Shown here one piece after another: positions 25,827 to 53,357 of a stretch of DNA of 64,000 bases. Positions within the stretch are counted from its first letter, which is position 1, and every line of letters starts with the position of its first letter. The notes beneath the pieces are model-generated. The model did no database searches. It was not told the DNA's origin and saw only the letters and a list, made by a program, of their open reading frames with translations. The position numbers were made by a program, and so were the translations under genes. The DNA comes from the human T2T-CHM13v2.0 reference genome, Homo sapiens. The stretch lies in the NCBI RefSeq assembly GCF_009914755.1, contig NC_060939.1; one strand, written 5' to 3'.

Positions 25827-28800
25827 TCAATTCCCACCTATGAGTGAGAATATGCGGTGTTTGGTTTTTTGTTCTTGCGATAGTTTACTGAGAATGATGA
25901 TTTCCAATTTCATCCATGTCCCTACAAAGGACATGAACTCATCATTTTTTATGGCTGCATAGTATTCCATGGTGTATATGTGCCACATTTCCTTAATCCA
26001 ATCTATCATTGTTGGACATTTGGGTTGGTTCCAAGTCTTTGCTATTGTGAATAATGCCGCAATAAACATACGTGTGCATGTGTCTTTATAGCAGCATGAT
26101 TTATAGTCATTTGGGTATATACCCAGTAATGGGATGGCTGGGTCAAATGGTATTTCTAGTTCTAGATCCCTGAGGAATCGCCACACTGACTTCCACAATG
26201 GTTGAACTAGTTTACAGTCCCACCAACAGTGTAAAAGTGTTCCCGTTTCTCCACATCCTCTCCAGCACCTGTTGTTTCCTGACTTTTTAATGATTGCCAT
26301 TCTAACTGGTGTGAGATGGTATCTCAGAGTGGTTTTGATTTGCGTTTCTCTGATGGCCAGTGATGATGAGCATTTTTTCATGTGTTTTTTGGCTGCATAA
26401 ATGTCTTCTTTTGAGAAGTGTCTGTTCATGTCCTTCACCCACTTTTTGATGGGGTTGTTTGTTTTTTTCTTGTAAATTTGTTTGAGTTCATTGTAGATTC
26501 TGGATATTAGCCCTTTGTCAGATGAGTAGGTTGCCAAAATTTTCTCCCATTTTGTAGGTTGCCTGTTCACTCTGATGGTAGTTTCTTTTGCTGTGCAGAA
26601 GCTCTTTATTTTAATTAGATCCCATTTGTCAATTTTGTCTTTTGTTGCCATTGCTTTTGGTGTTTTGGACATGAAGTCCTTGCCCATGCCTATGTCCTGA
26701 ATGGAAATGCCTAGGTTTTCTTCTAGGGTTTTTATGGTTTTAGGTCTAACGTTTAAATCTTTAATCCATCTTGAATTGATTTTTGTATAAGGTGTAAGGA
26801 AGGGATCCAGTTTCAGCTTTCTACATATGGCTAGCCAGTTTTCCCAGCACCATTTATTAAATAGGGAATCCTTTCCCCATTGCTTGTTTTTCTCAGGTTT
26901 GTCAAAGATCAGATAGTTGTAGGTATGCGGCGTTATTTCTGAGGGCTCTGTTCTGTTCCATTGATCTATATCTCTGTTTTGGTACCAGTCCCATGCTGTT
27001 TTGGTTACTGTAGCCCTGTAGTATAGTTTGAAGTCAGGTAGTGTGATGCCTCCAGCTTTGTTCTTTTGGCTTAGGATTGACTTGGCGATGCAGGCTCTTT
27101 TTTGGTTCCATATGAACTTTAAAGTAGTTTTTTCCAATTCTGTGAAGAAAGTCATTGGTATCTTGATGGGGATGGCATTGAATCTGTAAATTACCTTGGG
27201 CAGTATGGCCATTTTCACAATATTGATTCTTCCTACCCATGAGCATGGAATGTTCTTCCATTTGTTTGTATCCTCTTTTATTTCTTTGAGCAGTGGTTTG
27301 TAGTTCTCCTTGAAGAGGTCCTTCACATCCCTTGTAAGTTGGATTCCTAGGTATTTTATTCTCTTTGAAGCAATTGTGAATGGGAGTTCACTTATGATTT
27401 AGCTCTCTGTTTGTCTGTTGTTGGTGTATAAGAATGCTTGTGATTTTTGCACACTGATTTTGTATCCTGAGACTTTGCTGAAGTTGCTTATCAGCTTAAA
27501 GAGATTTTGGGCTGAGACAATGGGGTTTTCTAGATATACAATCATGTCGTCTGCAAACAGGGACAATTTGGCTTCCTCTTTTCCTAATTGAATACCCTTT
27601 ATTTCCTTCTCCTGACTAATTGCCCTGGCCAGAACTTCCAACACTATGTTGAATAGGAGTGGTGAGAGAGGGCATCCCTGTCTTGTGCCAGTTTTCAAAG
27701 GGAATGCTTCCAGTTTTTGCCCATTCAGTATGATATTGGCTGTGGGTTTGTCATAGATAGCTCTTATCATTTTGAAATACGTCCCATCAATACCTAATTT
27801 ATTGAGAGTTTTTAGCATGAAGGGTTGGTGAATTTTGTCAAAGGCTTTTTCTGCATCTATTGAGATAATCATGTGGTTTTTGTCTTTGGCTCTGTTTATG
27901 TGCTGGATTACATTTACTGATTTGTGTATATTGAACCAGCCTTGCATCCCAGGGATGAAGCCCACTTGATCATGGTGGATAAGCTTTTTGATGTGCTGCT
28001 GGATTCGTTTTGCCAATATTTTATTGAGGATTTTTGCATCAATGTTCATCAAAGATATTGGTCTAAAATTCTCTTTTTTGGTTGTGTCTCTGCCCGGCTT
28101 TGGTATCAGGATGATGCTGGCTTCATAAAATGAGTTAGGGAGGATTCCCTCTTTTTGTATTGATTGGAATAGTTTCAGAAGGAATGGTACCAGTTCCTCC
28201 TTGTACCTCTGGTAGAATTCGGCTGTGAATCCATCTGGTCCTGGACTCTTTTTGGTTGGTAAACTATTGATAATTGCCACAATTTCAGCTCCTGTTATTG
28301 GTCTATTCAGAGATTCAACTTCTTCCTGGTTTAGTCTTGGGAGAGTGTATGTGTCGAGGAATTTATCCATTTCTTGTAGATTTTCTAGTTTATTTGCGTA
28401 GAGGTGTTTGTAGTATTCTCTGATGGTAGTTTGTATTTCTGTGGGATCGGTGGTGATATTCCCTTTATCATTTTTTATTGTGTCTATTTGATTCTTCTCT
28501 CTTTTTTTCTTTATTAGTCTTGCTAGTGGTCTATCAATTTTGTTGATCCTTTCAAAAAACCAGCTCCTGGATTCATTGATTTTTTGAATGGTTTTTTGTG
28601 TCTCTATTTCCTTCAGTTCTGCTCTGATTTTAGTTATTTCTTGCTTTCTGCTAGCTTTTGAATGTGTTTGCTCTTGCTTCTCTAGTTCTTTTAATTGTGA
28701 TGTTAGGGTGTCAATTTTGGATCTTTCCTGCTTTCTCTTGTGGGCATTTAGTGCTATAAATTTCCCTCTACACACTGCTTTGAATGCGTCCCAGAGATTC

Positions 28801-29654
28801 TGGTATGTTGTGTCTTTGTTCTCGTTGGTTTCAAAGAACATCTTTATTTCTGCCTTCATTTCGTTATGTATCCAGTAGTCATTCAGGAGCAGGTTGTTCA
28901 GTTTCCATGTAGTTGAGCGGCTTTGAGTGAGATTCTTAATCCTGAGTTCTAGTTTGATTGCACTGTGGTCTGAGAGATAGTTTGTTATAATTTCTGTTCT
29001 TTTACATTTGCTGAGGAGAGCTTTACTTCCAAGTATGTGGTCAACTTTGGAATAGGTGTGGTGTGGTGCTGAAAAAAATGTATATTCTGTTGATTTGGGG
29101 TGGAGAGTTCTGTAGATGTCTATTAGGTCCGCTTGGTGCAGAGCTGAGTTCAATTCCTGGGTATCCTTGTTGACTTTCTGTCTCATTGATCTGTCTAATG
29201 TTGACAGTGGGGTGTTAAAGTCTCCCATTATTAATGTGTGGGAGTCTAAGTCTCTTTGTAGGTCACTCAGGACTTGCTTTATGAATCTGGGTGCTCCTAT
29301 ATTGGGTGCATATATATTTAGGATAGTTAGCTCTTCTTGTTGAATTGATCCCTTTACCATTATGTAATGGCCTTCTTTGTCTCTTTTGATCTTTGTTGGT
29401 TTAAAGTCTGTTTTATCAGAGACTAGGATTGCAACCCCTGCCTTTTTTTGTTTTCCATTTGCTTGGTAGATCTTCCTCCATCCTTTTATTTTGAGCCTGT
29501 GTGTGTCTCTGCACGTGAGATGGGTTTCCTGAATACAGCACACTGATGGGTCTTGACTCTTTATCCAATTTGCCAGTCTGTGTCTTTTAATTGGAGCATT
29601 TAGTCCATTTACATTTAAAGTTAATATTGTTATGTGTGAATTTGATCCTGTCAT
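25827..29654 (-). pseudogene. L1 ORF2p reading frame (1275 codons; EN/RT/Cys) with one nonsense codon at 27399-27401
   Basis: [14 protein letters not shown]..., FADD RT motif, ...FSLIGGN; 3828 nt; the 751-aa and 499-aa ORFs are in the same frame; CAA>TAA at codon 752. Confidence 0.95.
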
Positions 29655-52100: not shown

Positions 52101-53357
52101 CAATAGATGCAGAAAAAGCCTTTGACAAAATTCACCAACCCTTCATGCTAAAAACTCTCAATAAATTAGGTATTGATGGGACGTATTTCAAAATGATAAG
52201 AGCTATCTATGACAAACCCACAGCCAATATCATACTGAATGGGCAAAAACTGGAAGCATTCCCTTTGAAAACTGGCACAAGACAGGGATGCCCTCTCTCA
52301 CCACTCCTATTCAACATAGTGTTGGAAGTTCTGGCCAGGGCAATTAGTCAGGAGAAGGAAATAAAGGGTATTCAATTAGGAAAAGAGGAAGCCAAATTGT
52401 CCCTGTTTGCAGACGACATGATTGTATATCTAGAAAACCCCATTGTCTCAGCCCAAAATCTCTTTAAGCTGATAAGCAACTTCAGCAAAGTCTCAGGATA
52501 CAAAATCAGTGTGCAAAAATCACATGCATTCTTATACACCAGCAACAGACAAACAGCCAAATCATGAGTGAACTCCCATTCACAATTGCTTCAAAGAGAA
52601 TAAAATACCTAGGAATCCAACTTACAAGGGATGTGAAGGACCTCTTCAAGGAGAAGTACAAACCACTGCTCAAGGAAATAAAAGAGGATACAAACAAATG
52701 GAAGAACATTCCATGCTCATGGGTAGGAAGAATCAATATCGTGAAAATGGCCATACTGCCCAAGGTAATTTACAGATTCAATGCCATCCCCATCAAGCTA
52801 CCAATGACTTTCTTCACAGAATTGGAAAAAACTACTTTAAAGTTCATATGGAACCAAAAAAGAGCCTGCATCGCCAAGTCAATCCTAAGCCAAAAGAACA
52901 AAGCTGGAGGCATCACACTACCTGACTTCAAACTATACTACAAGGCTACAGTAACCAAAACAGCATGGGACTGGTACCAAAACAGAGATATAGATCAATG
53001 GAACAGAACAGAGCCCTCAGAGATAACACTGCATATCTACAACTATCTGATCTTTGACAAACCTGAGAAAAACAAGCAATGGGGAAAGGATTCCCTATTT
53101 AATAAATGGTGCTGGGAAAACTGGCTAGCCATATGTAGAAAGCTGAAACTGGATCCCTTCCTTACACCTTATACAAAAATCAATTCAAGATGGATTAAAG
53201 ACTTAAACGTTAGACCTAAAACCATAAAAACCCTGGAAGAAAACCTAGGCATTACCATTCAGGACATAGGCATGGGCAAGGACTTCATGTCTAAAACACC
53301 AAAAGCAATGGCAACAAAAGACAAAATTGACAAATGGGATCTAATTAAACTAAAGAG
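49154..53357 (-). mobile_element. 5'-truncated, 5'-inverted L1PA2/3 (twin priming): 3' part on - (49154-49808), inverted ORF1-ORF2 part on + (49808-53357)
   Basis: Single TSD agagttctccactcttt at 49137-49153 and 53354-53370; junction ccagcaC|tagcaagg; ORF2 broken by several frameshifts; GAG 3'UTR diagnostic. Confidence 0.97.

What the first reader, a model, noticed from the sequence alone, without database searches (positions are those of the whole stretch)
26602..53357. Two separately inserted L1s form a 3.55-kb inverted repeat and appear to have exchanged sequence (patchy gene conversion or inversion toggling) inside REC114
Seen: 26602-30170 (-) and 49808-53357 (+) are homologous inverted arms 19.6 kb apart, and each L1 has its own TSD. 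By eye, at least 15 changes from the recalled L1PA2/L1HS consensus are shared. Many are at normally conserved residues: ENLQEM (E>Q), SIQKEG (E>Q), KIHQPF (Q>H), FKMIRA (I>M), AISQEK (R>S), EEAKLS (V>A), QNLFKL (L>F), KISVQK (N>S), TAWDWY (Y>D) and ORF1 VEIKEK (M>I). Others are silent or CpG-decay changes (ccaagGcac, gaaatTaaat, cacaCaggc, gaAgccagc, atatcTttg, cagcaCata, agaccaTTgag). The copies nevertheless differ at sites I recall as lineage-diagnostic (caaaG/Accgc, aatagT/Cttacc, cataC/Tctac, aaagaT/Cttaaac, atgtcC/Taaaac, and ccaaaT/Ggac in the 3' parts outside the arms). Inference: different source elements, later homogenised in tracts by intrachromosomal non-allelic gene conversion. A parent-daughter local retrotransposition is the alternative, and one shared 3'UTR variant (ggtgAgctg) lies outside the inverted arms.
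Basis: partly seen in the sequence, partly recalled or inferred. Interest (0 to 1): 0.85.

Follow-up and report, generated by a model that had tools for sequence, protein, structure and literature searches.

The report
Gene conversion between two neighbouring L1s
Two dead L1 retrotransposons that landed separately 20 kb apart in an intron of REC114 have since copied stretches of sequence into one another, an ordinary but unusually clear case of gene conversion between nearby repeats.

Summary
A (25590-31640, minus) is a full-length L1 with its own 16-bp target-site duplication. B (49151-53357) is a separate L1 with its own 14-bp duplication. B is one twin-primed insertion. Its poly(A)-bearing 3' piece (49151-49808) points the same way as A, and only its inverted 5' piece (49808-53357) forms the 3.55-kb inverted repeat with A 26602-30170 (98.1% identity).

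A and B differ at 14 non-CpG sites where both states are common in other L1s (0.5 expected by chance). B carries older-lineage states and A younger ones, so they had different sources.

Sharing is strongest in two tracts:
- T1, A 29327-30170 / B 49808-50651: 3 differences in 844 bp.
- T2, A 27439-27916 / B 52047-52524: 0 differences in 478 bp.

The best other genomic copies found lack these joint haplotypes. In T1 the direction is B to A.

Best reading: non-allelic gene conversion (about 0.8). Tract statistics alone are modest (P 0.02-0.05). Tree tests do not reject an A+B clade outside the tracts. Inversion toggling has no support from reciprocal exchange. This is a known kind of event, of moderate interest.

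The parts
25590..31640 (-). L1 element A: full length, with an interrupted poly(A) tail (T-rich on the + strand from 25590). Both reading frames are broken.
   Evidence: Ends read. Pfam finds Tnp_22_trimer and Transposase_22 in 30198-30734, and Exo_endo_phos and RVT_1 in 27399-29654. ORF1 is open for only 178 aa; ORF2 is split into 751 and 461 aa.
25574..25589 (.). Target-site duplication of A, copy next to the poly(A) end
   Evidence: CCGCAGCACAGTTTCT. It matches 31641-31656 at 15 of 16 positions.
31641..31656 (.). Target-site duplication of A, copy next to the 5' end
   Evidence: CCACAGCACAGTTTCT
49151..49808 (-). L1 element B, 3' piece with a 14-nt poly(A) (T-run 49151-49164). It has the same orientation as A.
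   Evidence: Direct match to A 25611-26268: 97.416%, 17 mismatches in 658. Sequence read.
49808..53357 (+). L1 element B, inverted 5' piece (twin priming). It is the right arm of the inverted repeat.
   Evidence: Inverted match to A 30170-26593, 98.099%. RVT_1 domain in 51440-52567. The frames are broken several times.
49137..49150 (.). Target-site duplication of B, left copy
   Evidence: AGAGTTCTCCACTC
53354..53367 (.). Target-site duplication of B, right copy. Its first 4 bases are also the last L1 bases, which is microhomology at the internal priming site.
   Evidence: The alignment end shows AAAGAGCTTCTGCAC in A against AAAGAG-TTCTCCAC in B.
26602..30170 (-). Left arm of the inverted repeat, inside A
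26269..26592 (-). 324 bp of A that has no counterpart in B. This is the stretch of L1 deleted at B's inversion junction.
   Evidence: It is the gap between the two blastn alignments.
29327..30170 (-). Tract T1 in A (A-sense 1472-2315). This is converted sequence, and A is the recipient over at least 1844-1867.
   Evidence: 3 substitutions in 844 columns, all private to B; 0 variants private to A; 8 shared variants. A+B are sister with SH-aLRT 99 and A's end branch is 0. The markers 1844T and 1847C belong to the older-type clade, whereas A's own 5' 1471 bp sits with younger-type copies.
49808..50651 (+). Tract T1 in B. It starts at B's inversion junction, where homology ends, and stops at a 4-bp deletion private to B.
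   Evidence: In the genome-wide search A scores 1511 bits and the next best place 1466.
27439..27916 (-). Tract T2 in A (A-sense 3726-4203)
   Evidence: Identical to B over 478 bp, with 8 shared variants.
52047..52524 (+). Tract T2 in B
   Evidence: In the genome-wide search A and B both score 863 bits and the next best place 831, which is 7 mismatches. The best 4 others share at most 2 of the 8 variants.
28053..28376 (-). Zone in A with four more pair-shared variants (A-sense 3266, 3485, 3520, 3589), interleaved with differences. The counterpart in B is about 51590-51910.
   Evidence: Each of the 8 fetched of the 13 best other genomic copies has only one of 3485C, 3520A and 3589T.

Best explanation
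Two L1 elements inserted independently into the same REC114 intron.
- B came from an older L1 lineage. It inserted by twin priming, which left its 5' 3.55 kb inverted relative to its own 3' end and therefore inverted relative to A.
- A is a full-length element of a younger lineage, inserted 23 kb away in the same orientation as B's 3' end.

The 98%-identical inverted arms then served as templates for each other during repair of DNA breaks. This is intrachromosomal non-allelic gene conversion, most simply by synthesis-dependent strand annealing, without crossover. Private mutations of one copy were thereby written into the other.

At least two tracts are clear:
- T1, 844 bp: it ends at the edge of homology on one side and at a 4-bp deletion private to B on the other.
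- T2, 478 bp.

Between the tracts there is a zone of short or older patches (A-sense 3266-3589).

In T1 the donor was B and the recipient A.

What is shown: independent insertion, twin-primed structure, different lineage states, and shared joint haplotypes not found in any other scored genomic copy.

What is inferred: the repair mechanism, the number of events, the direction outside T1, and the age. T1 has 3 differences in 844 bp and T2 has 0 in 478 bp. With recalled primate substitution rates of 0.5-1e-9 per site per year, that is of the order of a few million years or less.
For: 1. Independent insertions. Each element has its own target-site duplication and poly(A).

2. Canonical twin-priming anatomy of B.

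3. Different lineages.
- 14 non-CpG differences lie at sites where both states occur in at least 3 other copies, against 0.53 expected.
- B is older-type at 11 of 14 typable discriminating sites, and A is younger-type at 9 of those 14.
- In its own 5' 1471 bp A sits nearest the younger-type copies L036 and L035.

4. Shared private variants. 13 variants shared by A and B occur in 0 of 16-27 other sampled copies. None is a CpG decay and 6 are transversions.

5. Joint haplotypes are exclusive to the pair among the candidates scored.
- T1: A has 3 mismatches to B and the next best place about 13 by bit score.
- The 3 fetched T1 neighbours (the best two places, plus one lower-ranked place fetched because it also appears in the T2 and 4652 lists) share at most 3 of the 8 pair variants. 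None has 1552G, 1585A or 1789T.
- The 81-nt window holding 1552G and 1585A is 100% identical only in A and B.
- T2: A and B are identical and the next best place has 7 mismatches.
- The 4 fetched T2 neighbours (the best three places, plus one lower-ranked place) share at most 2 of 8. None has 3742C, 3814C or 4142T.
- Each of the 8 fetched of the 13 best others for the 131-nt window has only 1 of 3485C, 3520A and 3589T.

6. Segment dependence. Against the whole genome A is by far B's best match in segment 1. It is only marginally best in segment 3. Seven places beat it in segment 2 and two in segment 4, and it is absent from the 40 listed in the 3' piece.

7. No A-private variant falls in T1. 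7.3 would be expected from the rate outside the tracts (P 0.0007, although the tract was defined partly post hoc).

8. Trees. A+B are sister with SH-aLRT 99 in T1 and 100 in T1+T2, and are not sister in 4204-5049 or in the 3' piece.

9. The GENECONV-like test ranks A-B first of 136 pairs. The best fragment is 1472-2290, with pairwise P 0.0195 and global P 0.046.

10. Prior. The closest relative in the genome lying 20 kb away is what conversion predicts. For two retrotranspositions from one rare source it would be a coincidence (inference).
Against: - Statistics that use only the spacing of A-B differences are modest. The longest difference-free run of 478 has P 0.019, the second longest of 343 has P 0.010, and the fewest events in an 845-column window has P 0.042. 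The GENECONV-like test with no mismatches allowed has global P 0.10.
- AU tests do not reject an A+B clade in the 3' piece (p 0.21) or in the concatenated non-tract segments (p 0.34).
- In the middle segment 2320-3725 A and B are still sister (SH-aLRT 94), despite long end branches.
- The isolated shared variants are not exclusive to the pair. The 96-nt window with 5944T is identical in 6 other places, the 78-nt window with 4652G in 6 others (plus one over 76 nt), and the 108-nt window with 3266C in 2 others.
- The shared variants in 3266-3589 are interleaved with differences. Explaining them needs very short patches, or an older event followed by new mutations.
- The comparison set is small and biased. 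It has 29 rows and about 25 independent copies, chosen by similarity to B.
- The genome search scores only 40 candidates per query and is lossy. In the whole-arm search A itself was not scored.
- B carries younger-type states at 3 of 14 discriminating sites (2182, 2353, 3161), so the direction of transfer is not uniform or not known outside 1844-1867.
Confidence: 0.8

Rival explanations
1. Parent-daughter or sibling copies. B was retrotransposed from A, or both came from one rare source that already carried the shared variants. All differences arose after insertion and there was no exchange.
For: - The numbers of private changes are similar: 25 A-private columns against 19 substitutions plus 4 deletions private to B.
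- One shared rare variant (5944T) lies in the direct-oriented 3' piece, outside the inverted arms.
- A+B are sister in 2320-3725 (SH-aLRT 94).
- AU tests do not reject an A+B clade outside the tracts.
- A-B has the fewest mismatches of all 136 pairs: 49 of 637 polymorphic columns, against 74-104 for the other pairs shown.
Against: - 14 non-CpG differences fall on sites where both alleles are common among other copies, against 0.53 expected (P about 1e-15).
- These differences are polarised: B is older-type and A is younger-type.
- Differences are unevenly spread: 3 in 844 bp and 0 in 478 bp, against about 2% in 2320-3235 and 2.6% in the 3' piece.
- In the 3' piece the 39 other listed places (7 to 11 mismatches by bit score) are closer to B than A is, at 17 mismatches.
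- Two copies of a rare source landing 20 kb apart would be a coincidence of about 1 in 10,000 to 100,000 (inference).
Confidence: 0.07
2. An ordinary sub-lineage. The shared variants mark an L1 sub-family with many unlinked members, and the pair is nothing special.
For: - Each single shared variant that was tested alone recurs in a few other copies.
- Five of the shared variants in T1 are present in 1-5 of 19-21 sampled copies.
Against: - No scored copy carries two or more of the pair-only variants together.
- The best genome-wide matches to T1 have at least 13 mismatches by bit score and those to T2 have at least 7, against 3 and 0 for the partner.
- A handful of single recurrences is what independent mutation predicts in a family of thousands of copies (inference).
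Confidence: 0.04
3. Inversion toggling. Repeated crossovers between the inverted arms flipped the 19.6-kb spacer back and forth, and the exchange of sequence is a by-product of those crossovers.
For: - The anatomy is right for it: inverted L1 arms of 3.55 kb at 98% identity.
- In 41 human genomes, 22 balanced inversions were flanked by inverted L1 pairs with median identity 97.2% (passages of preprint 10.1101/2021.12.20.472354).
- In three genomes, 8 LINE-1-mediated inversions had median similarity 97.1% (passages of PMC9675761).
Against: - Crossovers swap sequence reciprocally and do not make copies alike. At 0 of 14 discriminating sites is A older-type while B is younger-type.
- The present orientation is the original one. 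A is collinear across the arm boundary and both pairs of target-site duplications are direct.
- REC114 and the 5-digit position prefixes for the A arm alone (from a recalled hg38 offset) gave no hit in the one supplement of PMC9675761 held as text.
- No paper linking REC114 to an L1 inversion turned up (3 reviews in the listing only).
Confidence: 0.08
4. An assembly or polishing artefact that made the two repeats falsely alike.
For: None found.
Against: - The tracts carry variants absent from other L1s and sit within otherwise distinct copies with unique flanks.
- The window has no N.
- The source is a complete long-read assembly, according to the hub annotation.
Confidence: 0.01

Closest known systems
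Non-allelic (interlocus) gene conversion between neighbouring retrotransposon copies. It is best documented for Alu elements, with raised rates for copies less than 10 kb apart (Aleshin and Zhi 2010, as cited in passages of PMC6598467).
   Same: Independently inserted paralogues lie close together. They share otherwise private variants in tracts, and trees for the tracts conflict with the insertion history.
   Different: Here the partners are L1s, not Alus. The arms are 3.55 kb, inverted and 19.6 kb apart. One partner is inverted only because of twin priming. One tract runs to the very edge of homology.
L1 twin priming (5' inversion during retrotransposition). Ostertag and Kazazian 2001 is recalled. 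The preprint 10.1101/2021.12.20.472354 (abstract and passages) attributes about 85% of human inversions under 2 kb to it.
   Same: B has a 3' piece with poly(A) and an inverted upstream piece. There is a 324-bp loss at the junction, one pair of target-site duplications around the whole, and microhomology at the internal priming site.
   Different: Nothing unusual. It matters here only because it creates the inverted homology with A.
L1-pair-mediated balanced inversions, that is non-allelic homologous recombination between inverted L1s (passages of 10.1101/2021.12.20.472354, and of PMC9675761).
   Same: Arm identity (98.1%) and arm length fall in the range reported for L1 pairs that flank inversions.
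   Different: No inversion is seen in this assembly, and there is no reciprocal exchange of lineage markers. The spacer of 19.6 kb is larger than the reported medians (5.6 kb and 5.5 kb).

Membership tests
LINE-1 (L1) retrotransposon | ORF1 (L1 trimerisation and RNA-binding domains) and ORF2 (endonuclease plus reverse transcriptase) | tested here: met
   In A, Pfam finds Tnp_22_trimer 1.6e-32, Transposase_22 1.4e-08, Exo_endo_phos 2.6e-20 and RVT_1 3.6e-43. In B it finds RVT_1 5e-44. The frames are broken.
LINE-1 (L1) retrotransposon | A poly(A) tail and flanking target-site duplication for each insertion | tested here: met
   a 16-bp duplication for A (15 of 16 identical) and a 14-bp duplication for B. 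There are T-runs on the + strand at 25590 onward and at 49151-49164.
   No repeat library was available. I only show relative 'older-type' and 'younger-type' groups among 29 sampled rows.
Twin-primed (5'-inverted) L1 insertion | A 3' segment with poly(A) and an inverted segment from further upstream in L1, enclosed by a single pair of target-site duplications | tested here: met
   direct match 49151-49808, inverted match 49808-53357. Duplications at 49137-49150 and 53354-53367.
Twin-primed (5'-inverted) L1 insertion | A small deletion or duplication at the inversion junction, and microhomology at the internal priming site | tested here: met
   324 bp of L1 (A 26269-26592) is missing. The two alignments overlap by 1 nt at 49808. 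AGAG is shared by the L1 end and the duplication, with further similarity beyond it.
Non-allelic gene conversion | Paralogues of independent origin | tested here: met
   Separate target-site duplications. Lineage-marker differences: 14 observed against 0.53 expected.
Non-allelic gene conversion | Tracts of raised identity, beyond chance, bounded by diverged flanks | tested here: met
   Met, but modestly. Scan statistics give P 0.019, 0.010 and 0.042. The GENECONV-like test gives global P 0.046 with mismatches allowed and 0.10 without.
Non-allelic gene conversion | Derived variants inside the tract that are shared by the pair and absent from other family members | tested here: met
   13 variants occur in 0 of 16-27 sampled copies. 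The joint haplotypes are absent from the fetched genome-wide neighbours. The searches score only 40 candidates each.
Non-allelic gene conversion | Phylogenetic conflict between tract and flanks | tested here: inconclusive
   In the tracts the A+B clade has support 99-100. In the flanks A and B are not sister in two of three segments, but AU tests do not reject a clade (p 0.21 and 0.34). Marker painting does show the switch in A at the homology edge.
Non-allelic gene conversion | An orthologue in another species or haplotype that shows the unconverted state | not testable with these tools
   No other primate or human assembly is held. The genome search states that the window's genome has no relatives here.
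NAHR inversion between inverted repeats | Reciprocal exchange of arm segments, or an inverted spacer | tested here: not met
   There are 0 of 14 discriminating sites where A is older-type and B is younger-type. The spacer is in its original orientation, judged from both pairs of target-site duplications.

The most novel reading that the evidence does not exclude
The inverted L1 pair is an active recombination substrate in the human germ line. The conversion tracts, at most a few million years old, would then be footprints of repeated pairing that also flips the 19.6-kb intronic spacer of REC114 in some human haplotypes. That would be a recurrent, so far unlisted, L1-mediated inversion polymorphism inside a gene needed for meiotic break formation.
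Probability: 0.12. Interest if true: 0.45.

Novelty: new member of a known kind. Interest (0 to 1): 0.33.

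Why it matters
The locus is a clean, dissectable example of sequence exchange between two L1s whose separate origins are certain.
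- It shows that a twin-priming inversion can create inverted homology with a neighbouring element of the same nominal orientation.
- It shows that conversion can write one copy's private mutations, and an older lineage's markers, into a younger element. Dating or sub-family assignment of such copies from sequence divergence alone would then be misleading.
- The pair has the arm length and identity of L1 pairs known to flank human inversions, so it is a reasonable place to look for one.

Both elements are dead and the spacer holds no REC114 exon. The only exon in the window is at 57644-57727 (hub annotation). No effect on the gene is expected.

Tried and rejected
- Whole-arm genome search. The first look scored 40 of 13,774 candidates, mostly units of a chr11 tandem array, and did not score A at all. 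I did not use it for ranking and switched to segments and short windows.
- Fetching 57 comparison copies. The comparison set is therefore smaller and biased towards B's neighbours in the 3' half.
- A possible sub-lineage suggested by 13 copies with only 2 mismatches to A's 131-nt window. I fetched 8 of the 13, and each shares just one of the three variants, so I rejected it.
- Direction of transfer from the density of private mutations. A's uniqueness density is 0.79% in the A-only parts (14 of 1781) and 0.73% in the shared parts if the pair-shared variants are counted. This does not discriminate.
- AU tests outside the tracts have no power to reject an A+B clade.
- PRDM9-like 13-mer (motif recalled). 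There are 7 hits in the window and none inside the inverted arms, so there is no lead to a hotspot.
- Literature for an inversion at this locus. One search returned 3 reviews (listing only). One search found no occurrence of REC114 or of the position prefixes in the one held supplement of PMC9675761; the prefixes covered the A arm only and rest on a recalled hg38 offset. These could list this locus.
- Earlier findings of this scan were not open.

Full report
**Coordinates.** Window coordinates are used throughout. "A-sense" positions count along element A in L1 sense orientation, with position p = window 31642 - p.

**1.

- The repeat finder gives five collinear inverted blocks between 26602-30170 and 49808-53357.
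- blastn joins them into one alignment, 26593-30170 against 53365-49808: 98.099% over 3578 columns, 48 mismatches and 9 gap openings.
- A is a full-length L1 on the minus strand. Its target-site duplication is CCGCAGCACAGTTTCT (25574-25589) and CCACAGCACAGTTTCT (31641-31656). It has a long interrupted poly(A).
- B is flanked by AGAGTTCTCCACTC at 49137-49150 and 53354-53367.
- Pfam confirms L1 ORF1 and ORF2 domains in A and a reverse-transcriptase domain in B.
- Both elements are dead. A's ORF1 is open for only 178 aa and its ORF2 is split into 751 and 461 aa. B's frames are broken several times.

**2. B is one twin-primed L1**

- The same blastn run shows a second, direct match: B 49151-49808 against A 25611-26268, at 97.416% with 17 mismatches in 658.
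- In element orientation B therefore reads: duplication, inverted L1 5049 down to 1472, then L1 5374 to the 3' end, poly(A), duplication. 324 bp of L1 is missing at the junction.
- At the outer end of the inverted piece there is microhomology between L1 and the target.
- This is the canonical product of twin priming.
- By their poly(A) tails both elements lie on the minus strand. The inverted repeat exists only because of B's internal inversion.

**3.

- All 10 peptides and 8 nucleotide motifs occur in both A and B.
- Thirteen of them occur in 0 of 29 other sampled L1 rows, four in 1, and one in 2.
- The named differences are real.

**4. Comparison set and its limits**

- The window's own genome could be searched, but each search scores only 40 candidates. 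The whole-arm search did not even score A. I therefore searched by segment and by short window.
- I worked with 29 other rows, about 25 independent copies. One chr11 tandem array is counted once, and one duplicate row was removed from then on.
- Most rows were chosen because they resemble B. Counts of "private" variants depend on this sample.

**5. A and B had different sources**

- Of 55 non-CpG substitutions between A and B, 14 lie at sites where both states occur in at least 3 other copies.
- If all differences were new random mutations, about 0.53 such sites would be expected (Poisson P about 1e-15). Two of the 14 adjoin the poly(A) and are doubtful.
- The states are polarised. At sites that nearly fix between an older-type group (L047, L040, L041, L042, L022) and a younger-type group (L035, L036, L024, L028, L026, L027), B is older-type at 11 of 14 typable sites. 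A is younger-type at 9 of the same 14.
- In the 1471 bp that only A has, A sits nearest the younger-type L036 and L035 (path lengths 0.023 and 0.024, clade support 89).
- This rules out a simple parent-daughter or sibling origin.

**6. Yet they share private variants**

- Thirteen variants shared by A and B are absent from all 16-27 other sampled copies. In A-sense coordinates they are 1552, 1585, 1789, 3266, 3485, 3520, 3589, 3742, 3814, 4071, 4142, 4652 and 5944.
- None is a CpG decay and six are transversions.
- Eight more shared variants are rare, in 1-6 of 19-25 copies.
- With about 25 private changes in each copy over 4.2 kb, fewer than 0.1 coincidences are expected (my arithmetic).

**7. 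The sharing is concentrated**

- T1 (A 29327-30170 / B 49808-50651) has 3 substitutions in 844 columns. All three are private to B. It has no variant private to A and 8 shared variants.
- T2 (A 27439-27916 / B 52047-52524) has no difference in 478 bp and 8 shared variants.
- By contrast 2320-3235 has 18 substitutions and 2 deletions in 916 bp and no pair-only variant. The 3' piece has 17 mismatches in 658.

B's segments searched against the whole genome:

| Segment of B | Rank of A |
|---|---|
| 1 (= T1) | Best by far: 1511 bits, next 1466 (about 13 mismatches) |
| 2 | 1443 bits; seven places score higher |
| 3 | Marginally best: 1461 against 1454 |
| 4 | Two places score higher |
| 3' piece | Not among the 40 listed, which have 7-11 mismatches by bit score |
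| T2 alone | A and B both 863 bits, next 831 (7 mismatches) |

**8. The joint haplotypes are not found elsewhere**

- I fetched three T1 neighbours: the best two places, plus one lower-ranked place that also appears in the T2 and 4652 lists. They share at most 3 of the 8 T1 variants, and none has 1552G, 1585A or 1789T.
- I fetched four T2 neighbours: the best three places, plus one lower-ranked place. They share at most 2 of 8, and none has 3742C, 3814C or 4142T.
- The 81-nt window holding 1552G and 1585A is 100% identical only in A and B among 324 candidates, of which 40 were scored.
- For A's 131-nt window holding 3485C, 3520A and 3589T, 13 other places have two mismatches. I fetched 8 of them, and each shares just one of the three variants.
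- Single variants do recur. The windows around 5944T, 4652G and 3266C are identical in 6, 6 (plus one over 76 nt) and 2 other places. Independent mutation predicts this in a family of thousands of copies. These three isolated sites are therefore weak evidence on their own.

**9. Formal tests**

- Trees: A+B are sister in T1 (SH-aLRT 99, A's end branch 0) and in T1+T2 (100). They are also sister in 2320-3725 (94), but with long end branches. They are not sister in 4204-5049 or in the 3' piece.
- A GENECONV-like permutation test on 637 polymorphic columns of 17 sequences ranks A-B first of 136 pairs.
  - With a mismatch penalty, the best fragment is 1472-2290 (pairwise P 0.0195, global P 0.046).
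  - With no mismatch allowed, it is 3730-4195 (pairwise P 0.04, global P 0.10).
- Scan statistics on the 55 difference events give P 0.019, 0.010 and 0.042.
- AU tests do not reject an A+B clade in the 3' piece (p 0.21) or in the concatenated non-tract segments (p 0.34).
- The tract pattern alone is therefore only modestly significant. The case rests on combining it with sections 5, 6 and 8.

**10. Direction**

- In T1 both copies carry 1844T and 1847C. Among sampled copies these occur only in the older-type clade (L047, L041, L042, L022, plus L034 for 1847). That clade shares B's state 2611G just downstream.
- A is younger-type on both sides of T1.
- So B was the donor and A the recipient over at least 1844-1867.
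- The tract starts at the edge of homology (B's inversion junction) and stops at a 4-bp deletion private to B.
- Elsewhere the direction is open. B has younger-type states at 2182, 2353 and 3161. The density of A's unique variants does not discriminate.

**11. Mechanism and age (inferred)**

- The simplest account is repeated intrachromosomal repair of breaks in one arm using the other as template, without crossover.
- It gave at least two clear tracts, plus short or older patches in 3266-3589.
- With recalled substitution rates of 0.5-1e-9 per site per year, 3 differences in 844 bp puts T1 at roughly 2-4 million years, with wide error. T2 is no older than a few million years.
- Reciprocal exchange, the footprint of an even number of inversions, is not seen at any of the 14 discriminating sites. 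The present orientation is the original one.

**12. What is known**

- Gene conversion between nearby retrotransposon copies is established, chiefly for Alu, with raised rates for close copies (passages of PMC6598467; passage of PMC8232201).
- Twin priming accounts for most small human inversions. Inverted L1 pairs of about 97% identity flank 22 balanced inversions in 41 genomes (abstract and passages of 10.1101/2021.12.20.472354). They flank 8 in another three genomes (passages of PMC9675761).
- I found nothing on this locus. One search returned 3 reviews (listing only). One search found no hit in the one held supplement, using REC114 and A-arm position prefixes from a recalled hg38 offset.

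**Verdict.** The finding is a new and clear example of a known process, not a new kind of thing.

Noticed in passing
L002-L018 (G000:C11:94150416-94244102): At least 17 head-to-tail L1 units with a period of 5,633 bp, about 97% identical to B's arm. This is a tandem L1 array on contig 11, and it swamped the whole-arm search.
   Followed up: no
L020 (G000:C1:147935396-147941515) and L021 (G000:C16:76653707-76659826): Two 5'-truncated L1s on different chromosomes are near-identical and sister in every segment tree that holds them (SH-aLRT 94-98). They probably lie inside a segmental duplication.
   Followed up: no
G000:C15:71035882-71036733 (about 265 kb before the window): The best genome-wide match to B's second segment is another L1 on the same chromosome arm, only about 265 kb away (1464 bits against 1443 for A). 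Its 108-nt window around 3266 is 99% identical.
   Followed up: no
window 50651/50652, 51396/51397, 51457/51458, 51885/51886: B carries three private 4-bp deletions and one private 3-bp deletion within 1.3 kb of its inverted piece. One of them marks the end of tract T1.
   Followed up: partly
window 13583, 17229, 25754, 32343, 37641, 48767, 49294: A PRDM9-like 13-mer (recalled motif CCNCCNTNNCCNC) occurs 7 times, against 0.73 expected. Three hits look Alu-borne and two lie in the G-rich 3'UTR tracts of A and B. None lies inside the inverted arms.
   Followed up: no
window 31640: One extra base (g on the + strand) lies between A's 5' end and its target-site duplication.
   Followed up: no
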